This document shows, piece by piece, positions 2 through 15,580 of a stretch of DNA of 64,000 nt (its first letter is position 1; each line of letters begins with the position of its first letter). Source of the DNA: an uncultured Lentisphaerota bacterium (GTDB taxonomy: Bacteria; Verrucomicrobiota; Kiritimatiellia; RFP12; UBA1067); NCBI GenBank assembly GCA_900320225.1, contig ONRL01000038.1:5698-69697 (forward strand). Reading direction: 5' to 3'. A model generated the notes under the pieces. That model was not told the DNA's origin and did not search any database. It saw nothing but the letters and a program-made list of their open reading frames with translations. The position numbers were made by a program, and so were the translations under genes.

Positions 2-709
2 GACCCTAAAACCTCCCATTCTCCTAAAGCGTCCCAGACACCCTCCCCAAAAGCCGTTCAGCCTCCTCAATCCCCCACGCCCCCCGATCCGACGGAACCC
101 ACGGCTCCCATGTACATGGGAAGACGCGTCGTGGGACTTTCCGCAACCACCAACGCGGACGGGACGGTGGTGGAGCGCATCAGGACAGACGACGGCAAGC
201 TCCACTCGAAGGTGTACTCCGTTGCCGAGCCGGTATTGACAACCCGTACGGATCAGCTGCTTGCGATGGCGGTCGAGGGAGATGGGAACGGCCCGCCGAT
301 GCCTGCCGCGACGAAGGCCGACGAGCAGCAGTTCCTGGAATCGCTCAAGAAGCCCATCGAGATACTCGAGACCGACACTCCGGACGTCCGCGCGCTCAAG
401 GAGAAGGTCATACAGGCGCGCGCGGACATGGTGGAGCTGCTCGCGCAGGGACGCGGCTTCTCGGAGGTTCTTGCGGAACACCAGAAGCTCCAGGCGGAAA
501 ACGCCGCCGTGAGGCGAGACGTGGCGAAAGAACTTCGGTCGCTTATGGATTCCGGCGACACGGCGGCGGCGCTGGAGTACCGCAAGCGCATGAATGCCGC
601 GCTCGAGCAGATGGGCATCGCCCCCCTGACGACCGCGATAACTGAGGAAGAACGCGCGGAGCGCGCAGAACGCAGGCGCGCCAGCCGGAAAGAACGGCTT
701 GGCAAGTAG
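2..709 (+). CDS. Family-A envelope protein, C-terminal part (5' end outside window)
   Basis: Frame is open from nt 2; a Pro-rich stretch (..SPKASQTPSPKAVQPPQSPTPPDPTEPTAP..) precedes listed ORF 110..709. C-terminal half aligns by eye with products of 7042..8058 and 13932..14924 (FLESLKKPIEILETD / FLKSLETPIVIDPED; LEQMGIAPL / LEARGIAPM). Followed by an S270 paralog as in the other cassettes. Confidence 0.7.
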   Translation, partial: DPKTSHSPKASQTPSPKAVQPPQSPTPPDPTEPTAPMYMGRRVVGLSATTNADGTVVERIRTDDGKLHSKVYSVAEPVLTTRTDQLLAMAVEGDGNGPPMPAATKADEQQFLESLKKPIEILETDTPDVRALKEKVIQARADMVELLAQGRGFSEVLAEHQKLQAENAAVRRDVAKELRSLMDSGDTAAALEYRKRMNAALEQMGIAPLTTAITEEERAERAERRRASRKERLGK

Positions 710-787: not shown

Positions 788-1648
788 ATGAAGACAAAAA
801 CGATGGTAACGGCGATTGCGCTTTTCTGCGCAATGGCTGCGGAACCTCTAGTAACGATGGCACAATCGGCCCCGCCGCCCCCTCCACCACCCGGCATGAG
901 CGTGGGGGCAAACGCGCCGGACGGAAGCGGAGCCCCGCAGCAGAGGCGACGGAGGCGCAAGATGCTGACGCCCGAACAGCAGATGGAGAAATTCGGTGGA
1001 TTCGTGGAGCCGGCCTACAGCGGCAAGTTCCTCTACTTCATGGATTTGCAGGGACGGATTCCGGCATCGGCCGTCGAGTGGGTGACCGAGCAGGTGCGCA
1101 TCGCCCTCTCGCTCCCAACACGTATCGAGCGGAAAGCAACGGGGACGCAGATCCCCACCACCCTGTCGCCGGACGCAGGCGGCATGATCTCAGTCGTTGA
1201 CATTGATGGCGAGCCGTCGCTTCTCGTCGCCCCCGACAACGGCTGGGCGCGCGTGAACGTCGCCGCGCTTGCGGTGGACGGCGCATCGGCGGAGGTGCTT
1301 GAGGCGCGGGTCAAAAAGGAGTTGTGGCGGGCGTTCGTCATATTGTTCGGAGGCGGCAATTCGCTCAACGACTTTGACGTGATGCGTCCCATACGCACGC
1401 TGAAGGATCTGGATGCCTGCAAAACTCTAGTTTCGTCGCCGGAACCCTTCAACGCGATGCTGAACGGCGCGAAGGCGGCCGGGATCACGCCCGTGCGTCG
1501 CACGACGTATCTCAACGCGGTGCGGCTCGGCTGGGCACCTCCGCCTACGAACGAATACCAGAAAGCCATGTGGGAAAGGGTCAAGGCCGACAAGGAGCGC
1601 GGGCCGACGAACCCGATCACCATCCAGCCGCCGAACGCGAAGAAGTAG
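788..1648 (+). CDS. Secreted protein, family S270 (copy I)
   Basis: 286-aa ORF with signal-peptide-like N-terminus (MKTKTMVTAIALFCAMAAEPLVTMAQS). Paralog of 8055..8864 and 13111..13935 (LLVAPDNGWARVNVAAL; C-terminal KERGPTNPITIQPPNAKK shared with copy III). No catalytic motif recognised. Confidence 0.8.
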   Translation: MKTKTMVTAIALFCAMAAEPLVTMAQSAPPPPPPPGMSVGANAPDGSGAPQQRRRRRKMLTPEQQMEKFGGFVEPAYSGKFLYFMDLQGRIPASAVEWVTEQVRIALSLPTRIERKATGTQIPTTLSPDAGGMISVVDIDGEPSLLVAPDNGWARVNVAALAVDGASAEVLEARVKKELWRAFVILFGGGNSLNDFDVMRPIRTLKDLDACKTLVSSPEPFNAMLNGAKAAGITPVRRTTYLNAVRLGWAPPPTNEYQKAMWERVKADKERGPTNPITIQPPNAKK

Positions 1649-2490: not shown

Positions 2491-3372
2491 ATGAAATTCA
2501 CTTACACATATCGCTCATCCGACGGCGAGCGGCACACGGCCGAGATCGAGGCCGAGAGCCGCGACGCGGCTTTCGCGAAGGTGCGCAGCGAGCTGGGCAT
2601 CAAGCCGATCAAGGTGGTGGCGGCAGGAGATAATGCGACTGATGAAGGAAGCGGCAAGAGTGCCGCTTCCCCGAGGTGGGGAGTCGTTCCTGTCATCGCT
2701 CTTATCGTTACCATCGCTCTTATCGCTCTGGTCGTGTGGTGGTGGTTGAGCGGTCGCGGGGCGACCGCTCCCGCGCAAGAGCCGGCCGCCTACACGGTGA
2801 ACACGCCCCAAGGACCTGTTACGCTGCGCGTGGCCGAGCCATTGCCCCGCCAGATGATACCGGGCAACCGACAGCGGATTGAGGACGACCGCGACAATGT
2901 CTTCACAAACGCCGCAGAAAGGCTGTTGGCGCGTTTCGCAGAACCGGGGCGGGCTGTTGCCGCACCTAAGGGCGAGCAGCCCACGGAGGCCGATTTTGCG
3001 GCCTGCCTGCGCGAGCCGATCCGCGTGGCGTCGAGCGAACTCACCGAGCACATCGACCTTAAGCGGATCGTGTCGGGCATGAAGCGCGAGATGCGGGCGT
3101 ACATCGCCGGAGGCGGTACCATCGACGGTTATCTCGCCGAGCTGGAGAAGCGCCAGAAGCTGGAGGTTTCGTACCGCGAGCGCGCGGAGCAGAAGCTCAA
3201 CGCCATTTTGAACGGGCAAGATGCCCGTTCTCCCAGCGGGCGAGATTCCTTGAAGGCCGCCTACGCCTACTGGCTCAAGGCCAACGCGCAACTTCAGGCG
3301 ATGGGCATCTACCCGCTCGCCCTGCCAGATACTCTCCGCTCCTACCAGATGAGCCTCGACATCGAGGAATAG
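2491..3372 (+). CDS. Family-B bitopic envelope protein (copy I)
   Basis: Start MKFTYTYRSSDGERHTAEIEAESRDAAFAKVRSELGIKPIKV, then one hydrophobic helix (VVPVIALIVTIALIALVVWWWL) and a C-terminal domain ending ..QAMGIYPLALPDTLRSYQMSLDIEE. Close paralog of 11154..12266 and more distant paralog of 8864..9673. Confidence 0.85.
   Translation: MKFTYTYRSSDGERHTAEIEAESRDAAFAKVRSELGIKPIKVVAAGDNATDEGSGKSAASPRWGVVPVIALIVTIALIALVVWWWLSGRGATAPAQEPAAYTVNTPQGPVTLRVAEPLPRQMIPGNRQRIEDDRDNVFTNAAERLLARFAEPGRAVAAPKGEQPTEADFAACLREPIRVASSELTEHIDLKRIVSGMKREMRAYIAGGGTIDGYLAELEKRQKLEVSYRERAEQKLNAILNGQDARSPSGRDSLKAAYAYWLKANAQLQAMGIYPLALPDTLRSYQMSLDIEE
2647..2670. repeat. H1 hairpin repeat (GGAAGCGGCA-AGAG-TGCCGCTTCC)
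   Basis: Perfect 10-bp inverted repeat with a 4-nt loop followed by CCGAG. Lies inside the family-B copy I coding sequence (encodes ..GSGKSAASPR..). Confidence 0.9.
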
Positions 3373-3946: not shown

Positions 3947-3975
3947 GCGAAAACAGTTGCTGACCTGTTTTGACA
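3947..3975. repeat. Degenerate copy of the CAAAACAGGTC/GACCTGTTTTG palindrome
   Basis: GCGAAAACAGTTGCTGACCTGTTTTGACA. The right arm is intact and the left arm degenerate. Lies between the convergent toxin remnant and the ATPase gene. Confidence 0.6.
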
Positions 3976-3983
3976 ATTTGTTC

Positions 3984-5201
3984 TCAAGCCCCTAAAGCGG
4001 CCAAGGGAACGGCGTAGAAGCCGTTGCCGAAGCGCAACGTCTTGTTGCCGGAATAGAGGACGATTCCGGTAAAAGGCGTCTTGGCGATGTTTTCCGCAAA
4101 CCACTTGAGATGGCGGAAGTCATCCGTAGAAGCCTGTCCCGCCTTGACCTCAACGCCGAGCAATGCGCCGTCCTTTCGCTCGACGATGAAATCGATTTCG
4201 CGCTTGCGGTTGTCCCTGTAGTGCGAGAGGCTGTACCCGCCTTCAGCCTCGGAAATCGCGGCCAGTTGCTGATACACCCATGTCTCGACGAGTTTGCCAC
4301 TCCTGTTCTCGTCCATGTACACGTCGTCCTCGTTCCACCCAAGGACGTTTGCCGCGAGCGCGGAATCCGTTGCAATCCACTTTTCGCGTTTTCCGATCAT
4401 GTCGTAGTCGCTCTTCGTCCACGCGGACACGCTGTCGAAAATGTAAAGGGCCTTCATTGCCTCCATGTAGTTCTGCGCCGTCACCTTCGATATCGCAGCC
4501 TTTGACGCCAGTTCCTCCATTGCGAAGAATTGCGCCGTGTGGGCAAGAAGCCACAATGCGACGGAACGCAGTTCAGGAAGCTTGCGGATTTCCGTCACGT
4601 CCTTGACATCTTTCTCAAGAAGATCGTCCAGATAGACTTCGAACCACTCGCTCCTGGCGTCTGGCGAGTAGGACTGGATTTCCGGGTAGCCGCCGCGAAA
4701 AGCCGCGTGGATCAGGTCCCTTCGTGAAAAGTCACCGTAAAAGGAGTCGAAGTCCCCCGCAAAGGCCCGGCGAAGGAAAAACGGCGGATGGCCGTAGATT
4801 TCCCCTAGGGACAGCGTCCGAAGCCGCACTCTGCCGAGGCGACCGGCGAGCGAGTCCTTGACGGCCTTTGCAAACCGGAGATTCGCGCTTCCAGTGAGGA
4901 GATACTGGCCCGGCGACTGGTCCTTGTCCACGACCATTTTGATCGAATCAAGGACGTCGGGCACCTTTTGCACCTCATCTATGACAATCGACTCGCCATT
5001 GGCATGCTGCACAAATCCGTTCGGGTCGCTTTGGGCGACACCCCGCACCAACTTGTCGTCGAACGTATATCTCCTCGCATGGGGCAAGTCAACCATTCCG
5101 GCAAGGGTCGTCTTGCCGGACTGCCTCGCACCGGTGAGATTCACGCCACGGCGAACCTTCATCATGGCGCTTAACCGAGATGTCTGCCATCGTTCAATCA
5201 T
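3984..5201 (-). CDS. AAA-family ATPase (AAA_14 + DUF4143-type)
   Basis: 405 aa. Walker A in ..LTGARQSGKTTLAG.. and Walker B-like ..ESIVIDEVQKVPD... The overall layout is typical of the widespread ATP-binding DUF4143 family. Confidence 0.85.
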   Translation of the reverse strand: MIERWQTSRLSAMMKVRRGVNLTGARQSGKTTLAGMVDLPHARRYTFDDKLVRGVAQSDPNGFVQHANGESIVIDEVQKVPDVLDSIKMVVDKDQSPGQYLLTGSANLRFAKAVKDSLAGRLGRVRLRTLSLGEIYGHPPFFLRRAFAGDFDSFYGDFSRRDLIHAAFRGGYPEIQSYSPDARSEWFEVYLDDLLEKDVKDVTEIRKLPELRSVALWLLAHTAQFFAMEELASKAAISKVTAQNYMEAMKALYIFDSVSAWTKSDYDMIGKREKWIATDSALAANVLGWNEDDVYMDENRSGKLVETWVYQQLAAISEAEGGYSLSHYRDNRKREIDFIVERKDGALLGVEVKAGQASTDDFRHLKWFAENIAKTPFTGIVLYSGNKTLRFGNGFYAVPLAALGA

Positions 5202-5254
5202 CGTGCTGGTTTCCGCTGAAACACAAGCATTATACCAAGCCCCTGTAAAAATGG

Positions 5255-5307
5255 CAAGTAGGAACGTGTAAAAACGTCAAGTAGACAGGTGCAAAATCTA
5301 CAAGTAG
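5255..5307. repeat. Three CAAGTAG direct repeats at 23-bp spacing (iteron or operator-like)
   Basis: CAAGTAG at 5255, 5278 and 5301, directly upstream of the ATPase start (5201, minus strand). Confidence 0.5.
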
Positions 5308-5654
5308 GCGACATCTCAATTAGAACATCATCTCGCGAATCGGTCTCAATCGCCACTAAAAATGCCCCAAAAATCAGACTTGTTTTACCCCCCAGTTTTG
5401 TATTCATGTCCATACATCAGGTGGATGTCCCCTGTGTACGCGACATCACTTAAATAGCAATAATCGAAGTTGCCGGCAATGTAAATGACATTTTGCGAGG
5501 ATTGGATTGCAAATGAGATTACGGCGCGGAACAACTATTTCCTCTCTCTGCCCCCCAGAGCAAAAAACTTGGGAAGACCGGTTGTGAAACTTGGACTTCG
5601 GGAAGTGCCCGAAGCAAAGAAGAACGCCGGTTGGAACAGGAAAGGAAAAGAAAA

Positions 5655-6365
5655 ATGAAGAAACTTATGTTTGTCGCGGCCGTTGCCGCAGCCTTCGCCG
5701 CATCGGCGGACGGCCTTCAGTCCTCCAACACGGTGGGCTATGGCCAGAACGGCCTTCGGTTTGGCTACAGCCTTGTGACTCCTCAGTTTACGGGTATCGG
5801 TGGCACTGCGCTTTCTTTGGACGCATTGCAAGGCGTTGGTTCAGATGCTTCTGATAATGTGAACTTGGCAATGGTTGACGAATACGGCGCTGCGATTACC
5901 ACGTATACTTGGAATGACTGGGCTGCTGCCGAACCGTGCTGGGTTGATGACTCGTACGCACCAGTGTCGGATGTTACTGTCTCTGCCGGTCAGGCCTTCT
6001 GGACGGGCGGCTCTTCAAGTGATCAGTTGATCCGGTCTGCGGGTGAAGTTTGCTTCCAGGATGTTGTCGTTTCTCTCCGCTTTGGTTATACCTTGGTCGG
6101 TAATCCATTCCCTGTTTCACTTGCATTGCAGGATATCGTTGCAGGCGGTGATGAGGCGTCCGACAATGTTACCATGGCCACAATTGACGAATACGGCGCC
6201 GCAATCACCACATACACTTGGAATGATTGGGCCGCAGCTGAGCCGTGCTGGGTAGATGACTCCTATGCGCCTGTTACGGATGTGACGTTTGCGCCTGGCG
6301 AGGGCCTCTGGACGGGTGGCTCAAATAATTCTCAGTTTGTGCGGTTCCCTGCTCCGGAACTGTAA
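5655..6365 (+). CDS. Secreted protein with internal tandem domain duplication (DUP family, copy II)
   Basis: Start MKKLMFVAAVAAAFAASA (signal peptide). Two ~95-aa repeats both contain ..DEYGAAITTYTWNDWAAAEPCWVDDSYAPV... Paralog of 15581..16242. Confidence 0.8.
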   Translation: MKKLMFVAAVAAAFAASADGLQSSNTVGYGQNGLRFGYSLVTPQFTGIGGTALSLDALQGVGSDASDNVNLAMVDEYGAAITTYTWNDWAAAEPCWVDDSYAPVSDVTVSAGQAFWTGGSSSDQLIRSAGEVCFQDVVVSLRFGYTLVGNPFPVSLALQDIVAGGDEASDNVTMATIDEYGAAITTYTWNDWAAAEPCWVDDSYAPVTDVTFAPGEGLWTGGSNNSQFVRFPAPEL

Positions 6366-6413
6366 GAATTTTGGTGTGTGGCATTGTGCCGCGCATTGAA
6401 TAAAAAAAGGAAA

Positions 6414-6887
6414 ATGAAAATGAAAAAAGTAGTTATTGTGTGTGCGTTGGCGTTTATGGCCTTTGCCGCGAACGCTGCGTCTGTGAAGTGGAATGCCGCC
6501 AACATCTATGGTAGTGATGGTACGACGAAGTTTTCTGGTGTCGTAACTCTCTATTGCACAGAGTTGTCTGACTTCAAGTCAGAAGTAACAGCGTCTAATG
6601 GTGCTGTTCCGGCGACTACCGTAGCGTTGCCAGATTCGGCAGGCGGAACGACGAAGACCTTCTACTTCGTGTTTACCGACAATGGCAAGACCTTCACATC
6701 CGCAGAAAAATCTGTTGCCATTCCTGCGACGGCATCAGCTGGTGTCGCGAATTTTGGCAACATGCAATCGGCAACGCAGAATGCCTCAAACTGGAGCGGC
6801 GGCGGCGGTGACATTCCCGAACCGACGAGCGGTCTCCTGCTCCTCGTGGGTGCGGGCATGCTCGCGTTGCGCCGTAAGCAGAAGTAA
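6414..6887 (+). CDS. PEP-CTERM sorting-domain protein (copy II)
   Basis: Signal peptide MKMKKVVIVCALAFMAFAANA. The C-terminus IPEPTSGLLLLVGAGMLALRRKQK has the PEP motif, a TM helix and a basic tail. Paralog of 15062..15532. Confidence 0.9.
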   Translation: MKMKKVVIVCALAFMAFAANAASVKWNAANIYGSDGTTKFSGVVTLYCTELSDFKSEVTASNGAVPATTVALPDSAGGTTKTFYFVFTDNGKTFTSAEKSVAIPATASAGVANFGNMQSATQNASNWSGGGGDIPEPTSGLLLLVGAGMLALRRKQK

Positions 6888-6908
6888 GTAAGGCGTAATG
6901 CCCGAGGG

Positions 6909-6945
6909 AACGCCCGACCGCTTGTGCGGGCGGGCGTTTTCCTTT
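6909..6945 (+). terminator. Hairpin plus T-run between the PEP-CTERM gene and the family-A gene
   Basis: AACGCCCG..CGGGCGTT stem with inner CCGC/GCGG pairing, followed by TTTTCCTTT. An analogous element occupies the same position in cassette III. Confidence 0.5.
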
Positions 6946-7041
6946 GGGATATTCATTTGTCGTCTGTCTTTTGTCCTCTGTCCCGCCTGGGGACGGACAG
7001 AAGACGAAGGGCAGAAGATAGAGGAAGACTGGAAGCCCCCA

Positions 7042-8058
7042 ATGACATTCACAGTAACATACCGCGACAAGGACGGCGCATTACGCGAGGAGTGTGTCGA
7101 GGCCGCGAATCGAGCCGAGTGCGTGGCCGCGTGCAAAGAGCGCGGGATTGTGCCGACGGGCATCCGCGAGGGGCGAACTTCTGTTCGTCCGAGAAGCGGC
7201 AGCGCCGCTTCTCGGAGCGCGCAGCAGATCGGAAAGACCAAGCTTATCGCGGCCGTCGTGATTGCTGCCGTGACGTGTGGCATTGGCATTGCGTGGTGGC
7301 TGTGGCCACGAGCCGAACCCCAGCAGGAGGTTCGCCAGCAGCCCAAGAAAGCTGTGACGCCTCCTCCCGTAAAACGGCAGCCCAAGGTCTTAGAACAACC
7401 CTCTCGACCAGCGGAAACGAATGTCGCGCCAACGCCAGAACCAGTCAAGATCGATCCCAATGCACGGCCTGAAAAGGTGGGGGAGACGGTCAACGGCTAC
7501 ATCAAGTTGCCGTCCGGGAGGCTTCATAAGGTGAGAGGGGTCGTGACGAACGACGTCGCGCAGGCCACGCGCGGGAAATATGCCATTTTCGAGCACAACT
7601 GCGAGAATGAAATCGCGTGTTACCTCTCGCTCAAGCCCGGCGACGCGATCTTCGGGACGATGAAGTACAATGGAAGATTCAAGAAAGAATTCCTCAAGTC
7701 GCTGGAAACGCCAATTGTCATAGATCCAGAAGACTCAGACGAGGTCAAGGAGCTGAAACGGAATGTCCGCGACGCCAAGATCCAACTGAAGACTGCGATG
7801 GACAACGGCGAGGACATCGAGAAGATCATGGCGGACACGCGTCGGGAACTGCAGGACCTTGCACGTTACAAGATGGATCTCACGCGGCATCTGCATGACA
7901 TGCGCCATGACGGGAAACTTACGACCGTCGAGGATTTGCAGGACGCAGTCGACGCCGCCAACAAGATGCTGGAGGCCAGAGGAATCGCCCCGATGAAATT
8001 CGGGCCGCTCGTCCGCCAGAAGATGTTGATGGAACTTGAAAAGGAACAGAAGAAATGA
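7042..8058 (+). CDS. Family-A bitopic envelope protein (copy II)
   Basis: Start chosen at MTFTVTYRDKDGALREECVEAANRAECVAACKERGIVPTGI by homology to 13932..14924. One TM helix (LIAAVVIAAVTCGIGIAWWLW), a Pro-rich linker and a C-terminal domain. ATGA overlap with the next gene. Confidence 0.8.
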   Translation: MTFTVTYRDKDGALREECVEAANRAECVAACKERGIVPTGIREGRTSVRPRSGSAASRSAQQIGKTKLIAAVVIAAVTCGIGIAWWLWPRAEPQQEVRQQPKKAVTPPPVKRQPKVLEQPSRPAETNVAPTPEPVKIDPNARPEKVGETVNGYIKLPSGRLHKVRGVVTNDVAQATRGKYAIFEHNCENEIACYLSLKPGDAIFGTMKYNGRFKKEFLKSLETPIVIDPEDSDEVKELKRNVRDAKIQLKTAMDNGEDIEKIMADTRRELQDLARYKMDLTRHLHDMRHDGKLTTVEDLQDAVDAANKMLEARGIAPMKFGPLVRQKMLMELEKEQKK

Positions 8059-8864
8059 AGCGCTTGACTTTGGTTGCGGCCCTTTTAGCCGTGGCATTTG
8101 TGGCGGCGGTCGAGCCGCCGCCGTTCGACATCCACAAGAAGGCGGTCACTCCTGAGGAGAAGGCTCAGCGCAAGGCCTATTTCGAGAAACGCTTCCTCGA
8201 ACACACCGGCGGCAGGATTCTGCGGCCCGGCACGCGAAAGGGGACGGTCTACTACATCAACTGCCAGAAGCGCGCGCAGGCGGATTGGCTGGAGGAGTCC
8301 CGCGATTACATGGCCGGATATTCCAAGTTCAACGTGGCAATCAAAGACGGCGAGTTTGACCTCGCCGCCCCGAAGGTGGAGGGCAATGCCTCGTTGTTCG
8401 TGGTGGATGACGAAAAGTTGCCGCCGATCCTCGTGGCACCGGAGAGTCGCTGGGCAATCGTGAACGTCGCGCCATTGGCGAAGGATGCGAAGCCCGCCTT
8501 CTTCGAGGCTCGGGTCAAGAAGGCGCTGACGCGAGGTTTCTGTTTTCTCTGCGGAGCCAGCAACTCGCAGTTTCCACGTGCGCTGACAGGTGGCGTGACG
8601 GGGCCTGCTGACCTCGACAAGTTCCCCGACTACCGTCTCCCGGTTGACATCGAGAAACGCATGGCTTCATACATGGAACCCTTCGGCGTGACGCCGGCGG
8701 TGATGGCGACATACCGGCAGGCCTGCAAAGAGGGGTGGGCGCCCGCACCCGCCAATGACTACCAGAAGCAGGTTGCCGAAGCCATCGCGAAGGAGAAAGC
8801 CGAGACCCTGAAGGGACCGAAGTCTCCACGAAAGATTGTATTCGACCCCAAGAAGGGTGAGTAG
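8055..8864 (+). CDS. Secreted protein, family S270 (copy II)
   Basis: 269 aa with signal peptide MKRLTLVAALLAVAFVAA. Shares ILVAPESRWAIVNVAPL and ARVKKALTRGF with copies I and III. Confidence 0.8.
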   Translation: MKRLTLVAALLAVAFVAAVEPPPFDIHKKAVTPEEKAQRKAYFEKRFLEHTGGRILRPGTRKGTVYYINCQKRAQADWLEESRDYMAGYSKFNVAIKDGEFDLAAPKVEGNASLFVVDDEKLPPILVAPESRWAIVNVAPLAKDAKPAFFEARVKKALTRGFCFLCGASNSQFPRALTGGVTGPADLDKFPDYRLPVDIEKRMASYMEPFGVTPAVMATYRQACKEGWAPAPANDYQKQVAEAIAKEKAETLKGPKSPRKIVFDPKKGE

Positions 8865-9673
8865 TGAGATTCGTCTACGAGTACCGGACGAGCGACAACG
8901 TTCGGCATGACGGCGAAATCGCGGCGACGGACCGCGAAGCTGCATTCCGGGCCTTGAAGGAAATCGGAATCAGGCCTGGGCGTCTGGAAACGGCGCCGGG
9001 CTTCTTTAACAAGTACCTTGGGAATTGGAAGCTTCGGTTGGCGGCAATTGGCTTCTTCGCCGTGACGGCCGTGGGGGTGTCCCTTCCCTTTGTCAGCTCT
9101 TACTTTGTCGGCACGCGCGAGGAACAGGCCGTTCCGCCTGCTCCAGTCACGGAGACGTCCCTCTATGTTGATGAAAACGGCTTTGCGAAGCCGATCGAGC
9201 GTCGTCAGATATGGGGCGATGAAGCCGTGATCTCTGCCGCCGCCCGACAAAACTGGCGCGTGATCTTTTCTAATCCGGGGGAGCGGCTTCTTGCGCTCTT
9301 CGCCGAGCCAGGCATGAAACTTTCGATGTTGCCTCGTCTGCCGGACTCACTCCAGGAAGACATGGAGAAAGCCCTGCGCACGCGACTGACCATTTCACCT
9401 GACGAACTGGACGAGTATCGGCAGATGAAGTGCATAGTCGAGGGCATGAAAGCGGAACTCCGCGACTACCTTGCCGCAGGCGGAAACTTGGCGGGATACA
9501 TCAAACGACTTCAGGCGAGGCAGAACGAGGAAGTTGCATTTCTTGAGAAGGCGCGTGTGGAATTGGAAAAGCAGATCGAATCCGGTGCCGATCCAGTTAC
9601 TGCCTGGCAGGAGATGAACAAGCGCATCCGGGAACAGGGGCTTCCCGCGTTGCCGATGCCAGGGCTCAACTGA
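8864..9673 (+). CDS. Family-B-like bitopic envelope protein (copy II, divergent)
   Basis: GTG start overlaps the TAG of the upstream gene by 1 nt. MRFVYEYRTSDNVRHDGEIAATDREAAFRALKEIGIRPGRLE head, a TM helix, and a C-terminal region aligning with family B (ERLLALFAEPG.., ..LRDYLAAGGNLAGYIKRLQARQ..). Confidence 0.8.
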   Translation: MRFVYEYRTSDNVRHDGEIAATDREAAFRALKEIGIRPGRLETAPGFFNKYLGNWKLRLAAIGFFAVTAVGVSLPFVSSYFVGTREEQAVPPAPVTETSLYVDENGFAKPIERRQIWGDEAVISAAARQNWRVIFSNPGERLLALFAEPGMKLSMLPRLPDSLQEDMEKALRTRLTISPDELDEYRQMKCIVEGMKAELRDYLAAGGNLAGYIKRLQARQNEEVAFLEKARVELEKQIESGADPVTAWQEMNKRIREQGLPALPMPGLN

Positions 9674-9768
9674 GCATGGCAACCCCATTTTCAGAAAACA
9701 CATAGGTGAAGTAGGCACTTTCCTCGCCGGTCGACAGCAGCGGGATGGCTGCCCAATTGTTTCACTCC

Positions 9769-9798
9769 CTCGATGTCGAGGGCCATCTGGTAGGAGCG
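9769..9798 (-). pseudogene. Fragment of a family-B gene 3' end
   Basis: CTCGATGTCGAGGGCCATCTGGTAGGAGCG is nearly identical to the 3' end of 11154..12266 (..RSYQMxLDIE.. on the minus strand). No ORF is attached. Confidence 0.6.
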
Positions 9799-9850
9799 CC
9801 TTCCTATGCGTTCACAGCCGCTTCGATGCGCTTGCGGCCGCAAAGGAGCA

Positions 9851-10522
9851 TCAAGGCGTCTGGGACGGTGGCATCCATGCCACCGGACATTGGATGGTTC
9901 TGCCGTCTGCTGTCACGAACGAATCGGGCAGACGGCAGCCTGCGGCAAAGCCCTGAGGGATGTTACGGTAAAAGGTTGCGTAGCGGCGAAGTTCGTTGCA
10001 GATGCTCATCTGCGGGTTGAAGACAAGGACAGGAACCCCTATATGGTAACGGACGGTCTTCACTATGGGTGCGAGATCGGTGTCGCCAGAGATGAGAACA
10101 AGGCTGTCGGCGCGTCGTTCGTAAGCATCGCGCAGCATTGCATCAGCGATGTTTACATCTGTCATCTTTTCCGTGATACGAAGCACCTTGATGCGACCGT
10201 CGCTCCGTCTTTTGCCGCAGGACGTACAGGGTTCACGGACAGGGGTGAGAAGTTCGGCCTGTTCGCGATAGCGGCCTTCGATGATTTCGACGAGAGGACG
10301 ATTGGCAAGCGCTTTGAGATATTGTTCCTGCCGTTGGGCGTGGTGCTGGTTCGGGGTTTTGTCGATTACGCGAGACGTGAAGTACTTGATGGCGACGATA
10401 ACATGGTCTGGTTTGAGAAGTTTGGAGGAGAAGGTCTCAAGATCAAGCCATTTGTTGTCGGTACCGCGAAGTTGTCCATAGTAGAGGTTACTGGCATCGA
10501 TGTAGATGATTGTGTTTTTCAT
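9851..10522 (-). CDS. NYN-domain putative ribonuclease, copy II
   Basis: Start taken at MKNTIIYIDASNLYYG (10522). VLISGDTDLAPIVKTVRYHIGVPVLVFNP motif present. The listed ORF extends upstream through a duplicated, decayed NYN 5' fragment. Confidence 0.85.
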   Translation of the reverse strand: MKNTIIYIDASNLYYGQLRGTDNKWLDLETFSSKLLKPDHVIVAIKYFTSRVIDKTPNQHHAQRQEQYLKALANRPLVEIIEGRYREQAELLTPVREPCTSCGKRRSDGRIKVLRITEKMTDVNIADAMLRDAYERRADSLVLISGDTDLAPIVKTVRYHIGVPVLVFNPQMSICNELRRYATFYRNIPQGFAAGCRLPDSFVTADGRTIQCPVAWMPPSQTP

Positions 10523-10622
10523 TGATTCCTCCTGAAAGTGCAAGAGCCGGGCTTGCGCCCGGCTCCGCGCCGCCTCCCCGAAAGTCGGCGGGTTAAACGC
10601 CCCGTCATTGGGGGCAGTTGGA

Positions 10623-10651
10623 AGTATACCAAAGATAGTGGCGGCGCGCAA
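10623..10651 (-). promoter_or_regulatory. Putative promoter of NYN copy II (TTGCGC-N17-TATACT, minus strand)
   Basis: The reverse complement reads TTGCGC (10651..10646), a 17-nt spacer, then TATACT (10628..10623). A GAGCCGGGC-GCAA-GCCCGGCTC hairpin and a GGAGG RBS follow. Confidence 0.5.
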
Positions 10652-10675
10652 GGGGCCACTCGAAAAATTCGGCAA

Positions 10676-10723
10676 TCCATCGATATATGCAATAGATTTC
10701 TTTATCGTATCCTGAAACTGCAA
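10676..10723 (-). pseudogene. Decayed 5' fragment of a NYN gene
   Basis: Encodes ..QFQDTIKKSIAYIDG, matching the copy I N-terminus (QFLDTMKKTIAYIDG), but the ATG is mutated to ATA and homology stops after 16 codons. Confidence 0.6.
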
Positions 10724-10810
10724 AGGCCTCTCGCCTATCGGCTTGAGGCCCTGCCCCGCATCGGCAGAGCCTCACGGTCGGATATCAACCCTTTAACGGG
10801 TTCGGACGGT

Positions 10811-10839
10811 AGTGTACCACATCGCAGGGCATGGTGCAA
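10811..10839 (-). promoter_or_regulatory. Orphaned NYN-type promoter (TTGCAC-N17-TACACT, minus strand)
   Basis: Same box sequences and spacing as at 12285..12313. It now drives only the NYN 5' fragment. Confidence 0.4.
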
Positions 10840-10903
10840 GGGGGTGTGCAAAAAAAGAGGAAGTTCACACCAGGTTAGAATTTCATTTTTTTCAATTACC
10901 CCC

Positions 10904-10932
10904 TTGCGGACGGGCAAGGCATGTGGTATCAT
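10904..10932 (+). promoter_or_regulatory. Putative promoter upstream of the Abi remnant (TTGCGG-N17-TATCAT)
   Basis: CCCCCTTGCGG..TGGTATCAT, the same pattern as the promoters upstream of rpmE and the tRNA cluster. Confidence 0.4.
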
Positions 10933-11000
10933 ATCGTCATCTCAACCGCCTCGCCTCTCTGCCGTAAGGCATGATGCGCGTATTTGGCGGTTACTTTTTT

Positions 11001-11149: not shown

Positions 11150-11153
11150 CACT

Positions 11154-12266
11154 TTACTCGTCGATGTCGAGGGACATCTGGTAGGAGCGGAGGGCGTCGG
11201 GCAGGGCGAGCGGGTAGATGCCCATCGCCTGAAGCTGCGCGTTGGCTTTCAGCCAGTAGGCGTAGGCGGCCTTCAGGGAATCTCGCCCACTGGGAGAACG
11301 GGTATCTTTCTCGTTCAACATGTCGTTGAGCTTCTGCTCCGCGCGCTCGCGGTACGAAACCTCCAGCTTCTGGCGCTTCTCCAGCTCGGCGAGATACTGC
11401 TCAACCGTGCCGCCTCCGGCGATGTAGGCCCGCAGTTCGCGCTTCATGCCGGTGACGATGCGTTTGAGGTCAACCACCTCCGTGAAGTCCGTCGAGGCGA
11501 TGCGGATCGGCTCGCGCAGGGCGGCCTCGAAATCGGCCGGTATCGGCCGCGCCGCATGTGAAGCGGCGAGAGCGCCGCTTCCCCGAAGGGTACCGACGTT
11601 GGATGAAGCGCCGCCTCCCCGAGGGGAAGCCGACTCTCGGGGAAGCGACACTCCTGTCGCTTCACCCGGCGCGAGGGTCGCCGGTGGTGTCTCAAGAGTC
11701 GCGGGCGGCTGCCGCCCTGGCTCGGCATAGCGCGCGAGCCACCTCTCGGCCGCGAATTTGAACACGCCGTTGGTCGGTTGGGATTTCGCCTCGCTGGAAG
11801 AAAGGGCATCGCGCCCGTTCATCGCTCCTTCAATTCTTCGCCTGTCGCCCGGTATCATCTGGCGGGGTAATGGCTCGGCCACGCGCAGTGTCACCGGCCC
11901 CTGCGGGGTCGTGACCGTGATCGGCTGGTCGGAGTTGGCTGCGGGCAATTCGCCGTTCGGGCGTCGCATCCACCACACCACGCCGCCGAGGACGGCGGCG
12001 AAAAGAACAACGGCCGCGACGAGGAGATTGCGCTTCTTGAATGAAGCGGCGAGAGCGCCGCTTCCCCGAGGGGAGCCGCTATTCGGGGAAGCGGCACTCT
12101 TGCCGCTTCCTTCATCAGTCGCATTATCTCCTGCCGCCACCACCTTGATCGGCTTGATGCCAAGCTCGGTCCGTATCTTGGCAAACGCCGCGTCGCGGCT
12201 CTCGGCCTCGATCTCGGCCGTGTGCCGCTCACCATCGGACGAGCGGTATGTGTAGGTGAACTTCAT
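11154..12266 (-). CDS. Family-B bitopic envelope protein (copy III, expanded by hairpin repeats)
   Basis: Start at MKFTYTYRSSDGERHTAEIEAESRDAAFAKIRTELGIKPIKV. Ends ..QAMGIYPLALPDALRSYQMSLDIDE. Longer than copy I because of segments containing four H1 repeats. Confidence 0.85.
   Translation of the reverse strand: MKFTYTYRSSDGERHTAEIEAESRDAAFAKIRTELGIKPIKVVAAGDNATDEGSGKSAASPNSGSPRGSGALAASFKKRNLLVAAVVLFAAVLGGVVWWMRRPNGELPAANSDQPITVTTPQGPVTLRVAEPLPRQMIPGDRRRIEGAMNGRDALSSSEAKSQPTNGVFKFAAERWLARYAEPGRQPPATLETPPATLAPGEATGVSLPRESASPRGGGASSNVGTLRGSGALAASHAARPIPADFEAALREPIRIASTDFTEVVDLKRIVTGMKRELRAYIAGGGTVEQYLAELEKRQKLEVSYRERAEQKLNDMLNEKDTRSPSGRDSLKAAYAYWLKANAQLQAMGIYPLALPDALRSYQMSLDIDE
11560..11581. 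repeat. H1 hairpin repeat
   Basis: GAAGCGGCG-AGAG-CGCCGCTTC followed by CCCGAAG, inside the family-B copy III CDS. Confidence 0.85.
11642..11663. repeat. H1-like hairpin repeat (variant arms)
   Basis: GAAGCGACA-CTCC-TGTCGCTTC preceded by CTCGGG, inside the family-B copy III CDS. Confidence 0.75.
12043..12064. repeat. H1 hairpin repeat
   Basis: GAAGCGGCG-AGAG-CGCCGCTTC followed by CCCGAGG, inside the family-B copy III CDS. Confidence 0.85.
12087..12110. repeat. H1 hairpin repeat (opposite orientation)
   Basis: GGAAGCGGCA-CTCT-TGCCGCTTCC preceded by TTCGGG. It is the orthologous copy of the repeat at 2647..2670. Confidence 0.9.
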
Positions 12267-12284
12267 TTTCTCACACATGCCCTC

Positions 12285-13110: not shown

Positions 13111-13935
13111 CTACTTCTTCGTGTTTGGCGGCGGAATCGTGATCGGGTTCGTCGGCCCGCGCTCCTTGTCGGCGCGTACCTCATCCCATATCTTCTGCTG
13201 AATGGCATCCTTGGGCTTTTCCGCCCAGCCTTCCTTGCATGCCTGCCGGTAAGAGACATAGATGGCAGGTGTGACGCCGATTGGCTCTAGGTACGGTGCC
13301 ATGCGCGCCACAACGTCCATCGAGAGGCGTTCGTCCGAGATGTGGTCAAGGTCTTCTGGCTTGTACATGCCACTGGTGAGCGAGCCGGGGAAGTTCGAAC
13401 TCATCGCGCCGCACAGGAGGGCGAACCCCCGCGACATCTCCTTGAGGACTCGTGCCTTGAAAAAGGCGGGGGCGGATCCCCTACCCGTCTTCAACGGAGC
13501 AACGTTCAGGACAGTCCACCTGTTCTCGGGGGCCGCCACAAGGGAAGGGAATGTGGGATCGTCAATAATGTAAAGAGAGGCATTCCCCTCAATTTTCGGG
13601 GACGGGAATGAGAACGTGCCGTCCCTGAGCGTGATCTGCAGGCGGGTTTCCTTTTTGAGGTACTCAATTGATCGCTCTAGGACTTCCTTCTCGGCGGCCT
13701 TCTGACAATTGACGATGGTAATCTCACCTTTCAGCGAGTCTTTCCGGACAAGCGTTCCTCCGGTACGCTCGTATTTCCGCTTCATCAGCCACTCCATACG
13801 GATCTTGCGCTCGGCCTCGTTGGTCGGCTTCGTGCGTGGATCGTACGGCTTCGCCTCGTCCGCCACCGCGCCGGAGGCCAAGCAGAATGCCACCGCGCAG
13901 AGCATCCATTTCCCGACTGTCATGTATCCGTTCAT
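13111..13935 (-). CDS. Secreted protein, family S270 (copy III)
   Basis: 274 aa with a signal peptide (MLCAVAFCLASGAVA). Contains SLVAAPENRWTVLNVAPL and ends KERGPTNPITIPPPNTKK. Confidence 0.8.
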   Translation of the reverse strand: MNGYMTVGKWMLCAVAFCLASGAVADEAKPYDPRTKPTNEAERKIRMEWLMKRKYERTGGTLVRKDSLKGEITIVNCQKAAEKEVLERSIEYLKKETRLQITLRDGTFSFPSPKIEGNASLYIIDDPTFPSLVAAPENRWTVLNVAPLKTGRGSAPAFFKARVLKEMSRGFALLCGAMSSNFPGSLTSGMYKPEDLDHISDERLSMDVVARMAPYLEPIGVTPAIYVSYRQACKEGWAEKPKDAIQQKIWDEVRADKERGPTNPITIPPPNTKK

Positions 13936-14924
13936 TTCTTGTTGTTCCTTTCTTCTTTTTCCTTCATGAGGAGTTCCATGCGTTTCCTGGTGATGGGACC
14001 GACCTTGAGCGGCGCGATTCCCTTTTCAGCCAGCAGGATGTTGGCCGCCTTGATGAAGTCCTCCACATCGTCGTCCGTCACGCCTTCCTTCTGCCGGTAT
14101 TCACTGAGCTCGTTCTGGAGGAGACGCTTGAAATTGTGCAATTCCTGCATTTCACGCCGGGTATCGAGCATGATCTGCTCGATGTCCTCGCCGCGGTCCA
14201 GCGCCGCCTTCAAGTTGATCTTGGTGTCACGGACGGCTTTCTTCAGTTCACGGGCGTATTCGTCGTCTTCGGGGCCGATGACGATCGGGGTCTCAAGGGA
14301 CTTGAGGAACTCCGCCTTGAAGCTCCCGTTGTAGCGAGGATCGCCCACCAACCCTTCTCCGGGTGTCATCGTGAGGAAGCACGCAATCTCGTTCTCACAG
14401 TGATGCTCGAATATCTCGTACTTGGAGACGCTGGTGCGCGACACGTCATTTGTCACCTCGCCCCTGATCCGGTGCAGGCGTCCGGACGGCAACTTGATGT
14501 AGCCGTTGACGATTTCGCCCACCTTTTCGGGACGGGCGTTCGGGTCAACCTTCACAGGCTTGGGTTCGACGGGTTTTGCCACGACGTTGGTTTCTGCCGG
14601 TTTCGGGCGCGGCTTCGGTGTGGCCGCCGGCTTCGGAGCGGCTTGTTTCTTTTGCACGGGTTTGGGAGCGGGAGTTGGCTGTGGCTTGGGCGACAGGAAG
14701 AACCATGCCACGCAGGCAATTATGACAACGACGGCAGCGGCGACGGCGCCCTTTATCCACGCGGGCCTGCGTGATGGAGACGCGACGTGCCCGCCCTCTG
14801 TGACGGAACGCGGGACGATCCCGCGCGCGCGGCACGAGGCAACAGCCGCCGCGCGGTCGGCGGCATCAATGACCTCTGTCGCAGGAGATCCGTCTTGCCT
14901 TCGGTATGTTACAGTAAACTTCAT
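13932..14924 (-). CDS. Family-A bitopic envelope protein (copy III)
   Basis: MKFTVTYRRQDGSPATEVIDAADRAAAVASCRARGIVPRSV head, TM helix (AVAAAVVVIIACVAWFFL) and a Pro/Lys-rich linker. The C-terminal domain is collinear with 7042..8058. ATGA overlap with the S270 gene. Confidence 0.85.
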   Translation of the reverse strand: MKFTVTYRRQDGSPATEVIDAADRAAAVASCRARGIVPRSVTEGGHVASPSRRPAWIKGAVAAAVVVIIACVAWFFLSPKPQPTPAPKPVQKKQAAPKPAATPKPRPKPAETNVVAKPVEPKPVKVDPNARPEKVGEIVNGYIKLPSGRLHRIRGEVTNDVSRTSVSKYEIFEHHCENEIACFLTMTPGEGLVGDPRYNGSFKAEFLKSLETPIVIGPEDDEYARELKKAVRDTKINLKAALDRGEDIEQIMLDTRREMQELHNFKRLLQNELSEYRQKEGVTDDDVEDFIKAANILLAEKGIAPLKVGPITRKRMELLMKEKEERNNKK

Positions 14925-15061: not shown

Positions 15062-15532
15062 TTACTTCTGCTTGCGGCGCAACGCGAGCATGCCAGCGCC
15101 CACGAGGAGTAGAAGCCCGCTCGTCGGCTCGGGAATGTCACCGCCGCCCCAGTTGCTGGCGTTCTGCGTAGCGGAGGCCATGTTGCCAAAACCAATGGCT
15201 GCAACATCAGAAGCCTGGGCAATTGCACTAACAGACTGCGAGGTGAATGTTTTGCCGTTATCCGTAATGGTAAAGTAGAAGTTATACTCATTACCCGCTA
15301 CAAATGCAGCATCTGAGAATTCAGTATTTGCAGCCTTAACCGCACCACTAGCGGCAGTAGCAGCTGCCGAGAATGACGCGACCTCAGCGCAATACAAAGT
15401 GACCGCACCAGACCACTTCGTTGTACCGTCGGAGCCATAGATGTTGGCAGCCGACCACTTAAAGGACGCCGCATTGGCTACTGTTGCAACCAAGGCAAGC
15501 GCCATAACAATCATTACTTTTTTCATTTTCAT
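15062..15532 (-). CDS. PEP-CTERM sorting-domain protein (copy III)
   Basis: Start MKMKKVMIVMALALVATVANA. C-terminus IPEPTSGLLLLVGAGMLALRRKQK. Shares SFKWSAANIYGSDGTTKWSGAVTLYC with copy II. Confidence 0.9.
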   Translation of the reverse strand: MKMKKVMIVMALALVATVANAASFKWSAANIYGSDGTTKWSGAVTLYCAEVASFSAAATAASGAVKAANTEFSDAAFVAGNEYNFYFTITDNGKTFTSQSVSAIAQASDVAAIGFGNMASATQNASNWGGGDIPEPTSGLLLLVGAGMLALRRKQK

Positions 15533-15580
15533 TTTCCTTTTTTTCCTATGTGTCACACAATGTGACACATTTGAAATTGT

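What the first reader, a model, noticed from the sequence alone, without database searches (positions are those of the whole stretch)
7042..7173. A ~40-aa GspF/PilC-N-terminus-like head on single-pass proteins (families A and B)
Five genes start with the same small module: MTFTVTYRDKDGALREECVEAANRAECVAACKERGIVP (7042), MKFTVTYRRQDGSPATEVIDAADRAAAVASCRARGIVP (14924, minus), MKFTYTYRSSDGERHTAEIEAESRDAAFAKVRSELGIKP (2491), its near-identical copy (12266, minus), and MRFVYEYRTSDNVRHDGEIAATDREAAFRALKEIGIRP (8864). The pattern F-x-Y-x-x-R-x-x-D-G-x5-I-x-A-x3-x-A-x5-x-x-G-I-x-P matches my recollection of the extreme N-terminus of type II secretion / type IV pilus platform proteins. An example is the EpsF/PulF type MAAFEYKALDAKG..G.IEA.....A...LKEQGL.P. 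Here it is fused to one TM helix and a periplasmic domain instead of the polytopic GspF core. Families A and B also share a C-terminal G-I-x-P-[LM] motif. This hints that these proteins dock to a GspE/PilB-like ATPase or another partner of that module.
Basis: inference. Interest (0 to 1): 0.7.

Follow-up and report, generated by a model that had tools for sequence, protein, structure and literature searches.

The report
GspF/PilC N-domain on single-pass proteins
Five membrane-protein genes in this gut Kiritimatiellia window begin with a ~44-residue domain that is a real, divergent relative of the poorly understood N-domain of type II secretion / type IV pilus platform proteins, here attached to single-pass proteins in a repeated, uncharacterised gene cassette.

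Summary
Exactly five ORFs in the window start with the same ~44-aa module. Each module is followed by a linker, one TM helix and a C-terminal domain.

The similarity to GspF/PilC is real:
- hhalign of 25 non-redundant heads against six full-length T2SSF proteins gives Prob 93%, P = 3e-7, ungapped, at T2SSF residues 4-44. Column shuffles score at most 17, against 42.7 for the real alignment.
- An HMM built only from the six T2SSF N-domains ranks the five head ORFs as hits 1-5 of 1009 six-frame segments.
- Pfam's own T2SSF_N model (PF28597) is recorded on homologues, at E <= 1e-5 on one.
- AlphaFold2 predicts a ββαβ fold (pLDDT ~95), as published for PulF.

The proteins are not T2SSF platform proteins, and no T2SS genes lie nearby. 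They belong to a conserved, multi-copy cassette found in gut and rumen Kiritimatiellia: PEP-CTERM protein, then A, then S, then B. S is a periplasmic metzincin-fold protein without a zinc site.

The proposed docking to GspE/PilB is unsupported. In PulF the ATPase interface is modelled on Cyto1/2, and the N-domain is dispensable with no known partner.

Verdict: a known small domain in a new architecture and context. Function is inferred only.

The parts
7042..7173 (+). Head of A1: T2SSF_N-like ββαβ domain, residues 1-44
   Evidence: AF2 gives strands 2-8 and 14-20, helix 24-33, strand 38-43, pLDDT ~95. hhalign to T2SSF residues 4-44.
7042..8058 (+). Gene A1 (338 aa): head, linker, TM helix (residues 66-86, nt 7237-7299), disordered Pro/Lys-rich linker (93-134), helical C-terminal domain (145-337) ending in the GIAPM motif
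   Evidence: No Pfam or NCBIfam family. No significant PDB fold match for the C-terminal domain.
8055..8864 (+). Gene S (269 aa): signal-peptide protein with an archaemetzincin-like fold and no HExxH or conserved His. Overlaps the A1 stop by 4 nt.
   Evidence: AF2 pLDDT 88.9. Foldseek 2x7m E = 5.8e-7. 0 of 61 aligned sequences have HExxH.
8864..9673 (+). Gene B3 (269 aa): head (8864-8998), TM, B-type C-terminal domain. GTG start overlaps the S stop by 1 nt.
2491..3372 (+). Gene B1 (293 aa): head (2491-2622), TM, B-type C-terminal domain
   Evidence: TIGR02120 GspF profile positions 1-57, E = 0.0075.
11154..12266 (-). Gene B2 (370 aa): head (12135-12266), TM, B-type domain with a low-complexity insert. 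Inverted paralogue of B1.
   Evidence: Inverted repeats I1 and I2, 84-88%. A gene at the corresponding position of related contigs (379 aa, L002) is flagged PF28597, faint.
13932..14924 (-). Gene A2 (330 aa): head (14793-14924), TM, A-type domain
   Evidence: Best window hit of the T2SSF-only N-domain HMM, E = 5e-4.
13111..13935 (-). Gene S, copy 3 (274 aa). Overlaps the A2 stop by 4 nt.
   Evidence: S HMM E = 1e-104.
788..1648 (+). Gene S, copy 1 (286 aa)
   Evidence: S HMM E = 4e-68.
2..709 (+). 3' part of a third A-type gene, cut by the window start. Whether it has a head cannot be seen.
   Evidence: Frame 2 is open from base 2. A C-terminal HMM E = 4e-12.
6378..6887 (+). PEP-CTERM protein gene (169 aa) immediately upstream of A1, followed by a terminator-like hairpin at 6919-6936
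   Evidence: PF07589 E = 2.3e-4. TIGR02595 E = 4.4e-6. Hairpin.
15062..15568 (-). PEP-CTERM protein gene (168 aa) immediately upstream of A2
   Evidence: 92% inverted repeat with 6801-6889.

Best explanation
The five genes encode two paralogous families (A and B) of bitopic inner-membrane proteins. The topology is inferred as N-terminus in the cytoplasm and C-terminal domain in the periplasm.

Their first ~44 residues form a ββαβ mini-domain that is a divergent homologue of the N-domain of GspF/PilC platform proteins (Pfam T2SSF_N, PF28597). The domain has been moved from the polytopic platform core onto single-pass proteins.

A and B are encoded, with overlapping stop and start codons, around S. 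S is a periplasmic protein with a metzincin fold but no zinc site. Each A-S-B unit follows a gene for a small PEP-CTERM surface protein. Gut and rumen Kiritimatiellia carry many diverged copies of this cassette.

Most likely mechanism (inferred, not shown):
- The working part of the cassette is periplasmic. The helical C-terminal domains of A and B, together with S, handle the cognate PEP-CTERM protein.
- The head is a flexibly tethered, dispensable accessory module at the cytoplasmic face, as in PulF.
- It recognises a cytoplasmic-face partner also used by GspF/PilC N-domains. That partner is still unidentified.
- Through it the head localises or tunes the complex rather than forming its core.
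For: Homology of the head:
- hhalign of 25 heads against 6 full-length T2SSF proteins gives Prob 93.1, P = 3.2e-7. Columns 3-43 align to 4-44 without gaps.
- 60 column shuffles give a mean score of 10.7 (sd 1.9, max 17.2). The reversed alignment scores 13.8 and the real alignment 42.7.
- An HMM of six T2SSF N-domains alone ranks the five head ORFs 1-5 of 1009 window segments. It gives at least 10 bits to 81/120 B homologues, 50/120 A homologues and 0/120 S-family decoys.
- In NCBIfam, 9 of 25 heads hit GspF TIGR02120 (best E = 0.0027), 3 hit PilC-Myxo, 3 hit XpsF and 1 hits PilC-Thermus. The B1/B2 hits and the one family A hit examined start within the first ~7 positions of the GspF model.
- Genuine HofC and GspF N-termini cross-hit other T2SSF subfamily models only at E ~0.07. 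The window heads are therefore about as close to T2SSF N-termini as T2SSF subfamilies are to each other.
- Precomputed Pfam T2SSF_N is unmarked (E <= 1e-5) on A-homologue P0158, weak on its B partner and faint on B2-like proteins. It is listed on 107/120 B and 7/120 A homologues.
- The best non-repeat PDB sequence hit is PilC (3jc8) residues 25-59, E = 0.0099.
- AF2 gives a ββαβ head with pLDDT ~95. That is the fold published for the PulF N-domain. Among the best fold neighbours of the A1 model are YkzG and T7 Gp2, the two proteins reported as structural homologues of the PulF N-domain (PMC10790770).

Accessory nature of the head:
- Many A-type proteins have the same periplasmic domain but no head.
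- PulF lacking its N-domain still functions, at lower efficiency.

Cassette:
- The order PEP-CTERM, A, S, B recurs in about 20 loci.
- Gene boundaries overlap by 4 nt and 1 nt.
- S has a metzincin fold without HExxH.
- The only cultured relative discussed in the literature encodes a T2SS (PMC5148204).
Against: - The head HMM scores bona fide T2SSF proteins only -1 to 7 bits. The link rests on profile-profile comparison and on Pfam's own model, not on simple sequence search.
- For the window's own A1, A2 and B3, related contigs carry no PF28597 hit on the A2 gene or on the genes matching A1 and B3 in length and position. B2-like proteins are only 'faint'.
- The held Pfam copy reported no PF28597 hit, so I could not score the five proteins directly.
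- No experimental structure covers the T2SSF N-domain, so the fold comparison is model against published model.
- Topology is inferred. The positive-inside bias is clear for B (3.2 vs 1.8 K+R) and slight for A (4.0 vs 3.2).
- No partner, no T2SS genes and no exosortase were seen near the cassettes.
- Heads are near neutral in charge (mean +0.3). This does not fit the purely electrostatic lipid binding suggested for PulF.
- The function of the cassette is entirely inferred.
Confidence: 0.55

Rival explanations
1. One reading: the head is a docking module for a GspE/PilB-type ATPase, so A and B plug directly into the type II secretion / type IV pilus motor.
For: The head is homologous to a domain of the protein that sits on that ATPase. 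Kiritimatiellota encode a T2SS (PMC5148204). A pilG N-domain mutant is suppressed by loss of the retraction ATPase PilT (PMC10790770).
Against: In the published PulE6:PulF3 model the ATPase N2D contacts Cyto1/Cyto2, and the N-domain was left out of that model. In the PulF oligomer models it is peripheral, and PulF without it still works. No T2SSF gene and no T2SS Pfam families occur next to the cassettes. Many cassettes lack a head on A, and some lack one entirely.
Confidence: 0.1
2. The head is self-contained. It mediates A-B (or A-A, B-B) association, or simply rests on the inner leaflet, and has no functional link to type IV filament machines. The domain was merely borrowed from a T2SSF gene.
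For: Both A and B of one operon usually carry a head, and their genes overlap, which suggests translational coupling. No T2SS genes are nearby. In MD simulations the PulF N-domain stays on the membrane surface.
Against: PulF oligomerisation does not need the N-domain. Cassettes with a head on only one partner are common. Head charge is about neutral, which argues against electrostatic lipid binding.
Confidence: 0.25
3. The similarity is convergent. The head is a generic ββαβ mini-fold unrelated to T2SSF_N. A variant of this idea is a membrane-tethered RNA-polymerase-binding domain like T7 Gp2 or YkzG.
For: The best PDB fold neighbours are YkzG, phage p56 and T7 Gp2. Heads have a nearly invariant Arg8 at the end of strand 1, and Gp2/YkzG bind RNAP through an Arg on the sheet. 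Short motifs of the head also hit PPR and FN3 repeats by chance.
Against: Those fold hits are not significant (E = 0.4-1.4), and Gp2 and YkzG are also the reported neighbours of the PulF N-domain itself. No YkzG or Gp2 sequence hit appears at E <= 10. The hhalign P of 3e-7 is in exact N-terminal register and well above the shuffles. Pfam T2SSF_N reaches E <= 1e-5 on P0158. The reverse HMM ranks the five heads 1-5 of 1009.
Confidence: 0.07

Closest known systems
N-domain of GspF/PilC platform proteins (Pfam PF28597 T2SSF_N; PulF residues 1-54, Guilvout et al. 2023, PMC10790770)
   Same: Located at the extreme N-terminus. About 45 residues with a ββαβ topology. The alignment is ungapped, and the only two N-domain columns invariant across the six T2SSF proteins (Gly12, Ala21) are nearly invariant in the heads; Gly35 is nearly invariant in the heads and present in four of the six T2SSF proteins. 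Followed by a flexible linker. Apparently dispensable. Same (non-significant) PDB fold neighbours.
   Different: Attached to one TM helix and a periplasmic domain instead of the Cyto1-TM-Cyto2-TM core. Forms a distinct, divergent subfamily: 1340 representative clusters, while T2SSF proteins score 7 bits or less against its HMM. Has nearly invariant Arg8 and Arg24 of its own. Not encoded next to T2SS or T4P genes.
T2SSF platform proteins (GspF/PilC/TadB-C, Pfam PF00482)
   Same: Only the N-domain.
   Different: No PF00482 domain, one TM instead of three, and no neighbouring GspE or pseudopilin genes. These proteins are not platform proteins.
PEP-CTERM / exosortase protein-sorting system
   Same: Each cassette begins with a small PEP-CTERM protein gene.
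   Different: A, S and B are not among the described exosortase-system components that the NCBIfam or Pfam scans would recognise. No exosortase was seen in the flanks that were read.
Archaemetzincins / metzincin metalloproteases (relevant to the S protein)
   Same: Overall fold (Foldseek E = 6e-7 to 2x7m, then MMPs).
   Different: No HExxHxxGxxH motif and no conserved His. Probably a non-catalytic binding protein.

Membership tests
T2SSF_N domain (Pfam PF28597) | Significant match to the family's own profile | tested here: inconclusive
   Only precomputed hits are available. They are unmarked (E <= 1e-5) on A-homologue P0158, weak on its B partner and faint on B2-like proteins. None is recorded for A2 or for the genes at the A1 and B3 positions in related contigs. 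107/120 B and 7/120 A homologues are flagged. The held Pfam-A copy reported no PF28597 hit, so the five window proteins could not be scored directly.
T2SSF_N domain (Pfam PF28597) | Profile-level similarity to the N-termini of bona fide GspF/PilC proteins, in register | tested here: met
   hhalign Prob 93.1, P = 3.2e-7, columns 3-43 to 4-44. Shuffle maximum 17.2 against 42.7. Reverse HMM ranks the heads 1-5 of 1009. NCBIfam GspF, PilC and XpsF hits.
T2SSF_N domain (Pfam PF28597) | ββαβ fold of about 45-54 residues at the extreme N-terminus, followed by a flexible linker | tested here: met
   AF2 gives strands 2-8 and 14-20, helix 24-33 and strand 38-43 at pLDDT ~95, then residues 49-66 at pLDDT below 50. 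The fold matches the PulF description (PMC10790770). This compares a model with a published model, because no solved structure exists.
T2SSF_N domain (Pfam PF28597) | Cytoplasmic location | not testable with these tools
   Inferred from the absence of a signal peptide, a folded N-terminal domain before the only TM, and more K+R before the TM than after it.
T2SSF platform protein (GspF/PilC, PF00482) | Two T2SSF cytoplasmic helical domains and three TM segments | tested here: not met
   No PF00482 hit at E <= 1. One TM helix.
T2SSF platform protein (GspF/PilC, PF00482) | Encoded with a GspE/PilB ATPase and (pseudo)pilins | tested here: not met
   No T2SSF HMM hit in 20 loci with flanks of up to 10 kb. 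No T2SS families in the Pfam lists of neighbouring genes or in the ten long ORFs scanned between 18.7 and 35.2 kb of the window.
PEP-CTERM / exosortase system (context) | PEP-CTERM sorting domain on an adjacent gene product | tested here: met
   6378-6887: PF07589 E = 2.3e-4 and TIGR02595 E = 4.4e-6. A PEP-CTERM-like C-terminus precedes A in most cassettes (regex only).
PEP-CTERM / exosortase system (context) | Exosortase (EpsH/Xrt) gene in the neighbourhood | not tested
   None appears in the Pfam lists. No dedicated search was made.
Metzincin metalloprotease (S protein) | Metzincin catalytic-domain fold | tested here: met
   Foldseek 2x7m E = 5.8e-7 with TM (target) 0.64, followed by MMP-7, MMP-2 and MMP-3. 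Model pLDDT 88.9.
Metzincin metalloprotease (S protein) | HExxHxxGxxH zinc-binding motif | tested here: not met
   0 of 61 aligned sequences contain HExxH, and no column has conserved His.

The most novel reading that the evidence does not exclude
T2SSF_N is a portable address tag for a cytoplasmic-face site on the type IV filament / T2SS assembly platform. On this reading the A-S-B cassettes are cargo-specific adaptors. They bring individual PEP-CTERM surface proteins, held by the pseudo-metzincin S in the periplasm, to the T2SS for export. GlyGly-CTERM/rhombosortase substrates use the T2SS in Vibrio in a comparable way (own knowledge, not checked here). The cassettes would then give the first handle on the unknown partner and function of the GspF/PilC N-domain.
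Probability: 0.12. Interest if true: 0.8.

Novelty: new variant of a known kind. Interest (0 to 1): 0.5.

Why it matters
The N-domain of GspF/PilC is conserved across type II secretion and type IV pilus machines. Its partner and role are unknown: in PulF it is dispensable but raises efficiency.

Here the same domain occurs as a free-standing module on 1340 representative clusters (50% identity). Among the 150 best-scoring of these, essentially all apart from contig fragments are single-pass proteins. This shows the domain is an autonomous, transferable unit. It also supplies an independent set of proteins in which to look for what it binds.

The analysis further defines an uncharacterised, strongly expanded four-gene cassette in gut and rumen Kiritimatiellia: a PEP-CTERM protein, two bitopic proteins and a zinc-less metzincin-fold protein. 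The cassette probably concerns surface-protein handling or variation.

Tried and rejected
- Local Pfam-A on the five proteins and on the 25 heads gave nothing consistent. No hit to PF28597 was reported.
- A PDB profile search was dominated by PPR proteins. This is an artefact: a 13-residue motif (lF.e.ke.GI.P) is summed over 8-10 repeats at about 8-10 bits each.
- Three very long proteins rich in repeats (FN3-like and EGF-like by eye) among the head-profile hits are the same kind of repeat artefact, here from the β-hairpin.
- NCBIfam 'post-PEP-CTERM_1' (NF047450) hit A1 residues 1-22 at E = 0.015. It did not recur in headless or other family A members, so I dropped it. Recurrent weak GltJ, TonB, FtsN and BamI hits fall on the TM and Pro-rich linker.
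- Foldseek of the A1 model against the PDB gave no significant match for the periplasmic domain.
- A genome-contig scan with GspF + HofC returned only Escherichia and Plesiomonas. I therefore could not obtain a Kiritimatiellia T2SSF.
- The T2SSF N-domain profile rests on six proteobacterial sequences taken from E. coli and from plasmid records.
- PADLOC and PHROGs do not know A, S or B.
- Papers mentioning PF28597, T2SSF_N, post-PEP-CTERM, or Kiritimatiell* together with PEP-CTERM: none found.

Full report
**Observation**

The window's first 16 kb holds five genes that begin with one ~44-residue module:
- A1: 7042-8058 (+).
- A2: 13932-14924 (-).
- B1: 2491-3372 (+).
- B2: 11154-12266 (-).
- B3: 8864-9673 (+).

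Head identity to A1 is 52% (A2), 36% (B1) and 28% (B3). A head HMM finds exactly these five among 1009 six-frame segments. An HMM that contains no window sequence recovers the same five.

Each head is followed by a linker, one hydrophobic helix and a C-terminal domain. The helix is at A1 residues 66-86 in the AF2 model. In both families a strongly hydrophobic 19-residue segment starts near residue 65, in 116 of the 120 homologues listed for each. The A and B C-terminal domains are distantly related to each other.

The C-terminal G-I-x-P-[LM] motif is real in A1, A2, B1, B2 and the edge-truncated first ORF. B3 has GLPAL. The A1 start at 7042 is supported by homologues starting at MTF/MKF and by a terminator-like hairpin at 6919-6936.

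**Is the head related to the GspF/PilC N-terminus?** Several independent lines say yes.

1. Pfam now has a family PF28597, named T2SSF_N.
   - Precomputed hits appear on 107/120 listed B homologues and 7/120 A homologues.
   - Where graded, the hit is at E <= 1e-5 on A-homologue P0158, weak on its B partner and faint on B2-like proteins.
2. I scanned 25 non-redundant 46-aa heads against the 18,950 NCBIfam models.
   - Only seven families were hit at all.
   - Four of the seven, including the three most frequent, are full-length T2SSF models. They are GspF TIGR02120 (9 heads, best E = 0.0027), PilC-Myxo (3), XpsF (3) and PilC-Thermus (1).
   - The matches examined individually lie at the N-terminal end of the models.
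3. Calibration with genuine proteins puts these weak E-values in context.
   - E. coli HofC's N-terminus hits the GspF model only at E = 0.076.
   - E. coli GspF's N-terminus hits the Myxococcus PilC model at E = 0.072.
   - The window heads are therefore about as close to T2SSF N-termini as T2SSF subfamilies are to each other.
4. hhalign of the head alignment against six full-length T2SSF proteins gives Prob 93.1 and P = 3.2e-7.
   - The six are E. coli GspF and HofC, pO157 EtpF, and proteins from Burkholderia, Bradyrhizobium and an enterobacterial plasmid.
   - The alignment is ungapped, head columns 3-43 to T2SSF columns 4-44 of 404.
   - Sixty column shuffles scored 10.7 ± 1.9 (max 17.2) and the reversed alignment 13.8, against 42.7 for the real one.
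5. An HMM of the six T2SSF N-domains alone ranks the five head ORFs 1-5 of 1009 window segments. It reaches at least 10 bits on 81/120 B homologues, 50/120 A homologues and 0/120 S-family decoys.
6. The best non-repeat PDB sequence hit is M. xanthus PilC residues 25-59, E = 0.0099.
7. AF2 with a 63-sequence alignment predicts the head at pLDDT ~95 as β(2-8) β(14-20) α(24-33) β(38-43).
   - This is the ββαβ fold reported for the PulF N-domain, residues 1-54 (PMC10790770).
   - No experimental structure covers this part of any T2SSF protein.
   - Among the best (non-significant) Foldseek neighbours of the model are YkzG and T7 Gp2. That paper reports these same two proteins as structural homologues of the PulF N-domain.

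Two caveats apply. The head HMM scores T2SSF proteins at only 7 bits or less, although the best match is always at the N-terminus. So this is a distinct, divergent subfamily. I also could not score the window proteins with PF28597 itself.

**What the proteins are**

They are not platform proteins. They have no PF00482 domain and only one TM helix.

I searched the head profile against 1.84 billion representative proteins.
- It finds 1340 clusters at E <= 1e-3 and 488 at E <= 1e-10.
- The 148 of the 150 best hits that I could classify are A-like or B-like single-TM proteins (90), shorter or unclassified sequences that are mostly contig fragments (55), and three repeat artefacts.

Named sources, GTDB hits and sample names point mostly to gut and rumen MAGs. 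They are labelled Kiritimatiellae/Kiritimatiellia, 'Lentisphaerae' or 'Verrucomicrobiota'.

Across about 20 loci the gene order is conserved:
- a PEP-CTERM protein of roughly 165-240 aa, then A, then S, then B;
- several diverged cassettes often lie side by side, frequently inverted.

The window has three cassettes, and the first is cut by the window edge. A/S and S/B overlap by 4 nt and 1 nt, which suggests translational coupling.

The head is optional on A. Many A proteins start MAWN... and go straight into the TM helix. B almost always has a head.

S has a signal-peptide-like N-terminus and a confident AF2 model (pLDDT 88.9). Its fold matches archaemetzincins (2x7m, E = 5.8e-7) and MMPs. 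None of the 61 aligned sequences has HExxH or a conserved His, so it is most likely a non-catalytic pseudo-metzincin.

The periplasmic domain of A has no significant PDB match. PADLOC and PHROGs do not recognise A, S or B.

**Mechanism**

Shown:
- domain homology at the profile level;
- the predicted fold;
- the architecture;
- the synteny.

Inferred:
- N-in/C-out topology;
- a periplasmic A-S-B complex acting on the cognate PEP-CTERM protein;
- an accessory, partner-binding role for the head at the cytoplasmic face.

The last point rests on analogy with PulF. There the N-domain is peripheral and flexibly tethered. It is not needed for oligomerisation or basic function but raises efficiency. 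Heads are near neutral in charge, which favours protein recognition over the electrostatic lipid binding suggested for PulF.

- The published ATPase interface is on Cyto1/Cyto2.
- No T2SS genes accompany the cassettes.
- The phylum does encode a T2SS, however (PMC5148204), so the idea remains open.

**Novelty**

The domain is known: Pfam T2SSF_N and the PulF N-domain. Automated Pfam hits already touch these proteins. I found no paper on PF28597 or T2SSF_N, and none linking Kiritimatiell* to PEP-CTERM.

I rate this as a new variant of a known kind: a known small domain in a new architecture, in a previously undescribed cassette.

Noticed in passing
window 1685-2356 (-), 9851-10723 (-), 12394-13074 (+); also 3984-5201 (-): Three NYN-domain genes lie between or beside the cassettes. 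Two were scanned and match the PADLOC candidate defence protein HEC-09 over its full length (E = 4e-44 and 2e-42) and phrog_7929. The third (12394-13074) was not scanned here; it corresponds in position to a 219-aa gene carrying Pfam NYN in related contigs. The AAA_14/DUF4143 ATPase at 3984-5201 matches candidate system PDC-S01 (E = 2e-119). The cassette array therefore sits in a defence-island-like region.
   Followed up: partly
window 788-1648, 8055-8864, 13111-13935: The S proteins are predicted with high confidence to have an archaemetzincin/MMP-like fold. The whole family lacks HExxH and any conserved His, while three Cys positions (70, 166, 224) are conserved. This looks like a pseudo-protease family with no Pfam or NCBIfam model.
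   Followed up: partly
window 1568-3371 versus 11155-13191; 16419-17426; 17595-18725: Long inverted paralogous segments (84-91% identical; I1-I3) bracket about 8-11 kb. Next to them lie a tyrosine-integrase-like gene (phrog_1, E = 6e-7) and an ORF at 17595-18725 whose 376-aa counterpart in a related contig (L001) carries a weak Pfam Y1_Tnp hit. Inversion or recombination between cassettes seems possible but was not tested.
   Followed up: no
window 10674-10868: An 82% copy of the region just upstream of B1, including its first codons (2307-2501), lies after the second NYN gene. The ATG is lost (…AGGAAGTTCAC). This looks like the remnant of a further B-type gene start.
   Followed up: no
window 5631-6365 (+) and 15581-16242 (-): A 244-aa signal-peptide protein with an internal tandem duplication (5844-6036 and 6153-6345, 74%) precedes the PEP-CTERM gene. 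Its inverted counterpart near 15.6-16.2 kb appears split into two ORFs and carries a 91% internal repeat. No family was found.
   Followed up: no
window 1-20000 versus 20000-62000: The cassette and defence region has 54-63% GC. The following carbohydrate-metabolism genes have 63-71% GC; these include GH43/SGNH, PIG-L, a sugar ABC transporter, peptidase U32 and PFK. The contrast suggests an island of different composition.
   Followed up: no
window 29408-31981 (+): One 857-aa ORF combines an extracellular solute-binding domain (SBP_bac_1, residues 97-365) with an ABC permease domain (BPD_transp_1, residues 656-849). This is an unusual fusion if the ORF is real.
   Followed up: no
window 3499-3762 (+): An 87-aa ORF next to the PDC-S01-like ATPase looks by eye like a Phd/YefM-type antitoxin. 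It was not scanned against any library.
   Followed up: no
C-termini of A and B proteins, e.g. window 7975-8010: The C-terminal '...L..rGI.P' motif aligns weakly to the helix-strand 3 junction of the head itself (HMM positions 29-40, domain E = 6-70). This is not significant and is probably coincidence, but it explains the 'two stretches' seen for many hits.
   Followed up: partly
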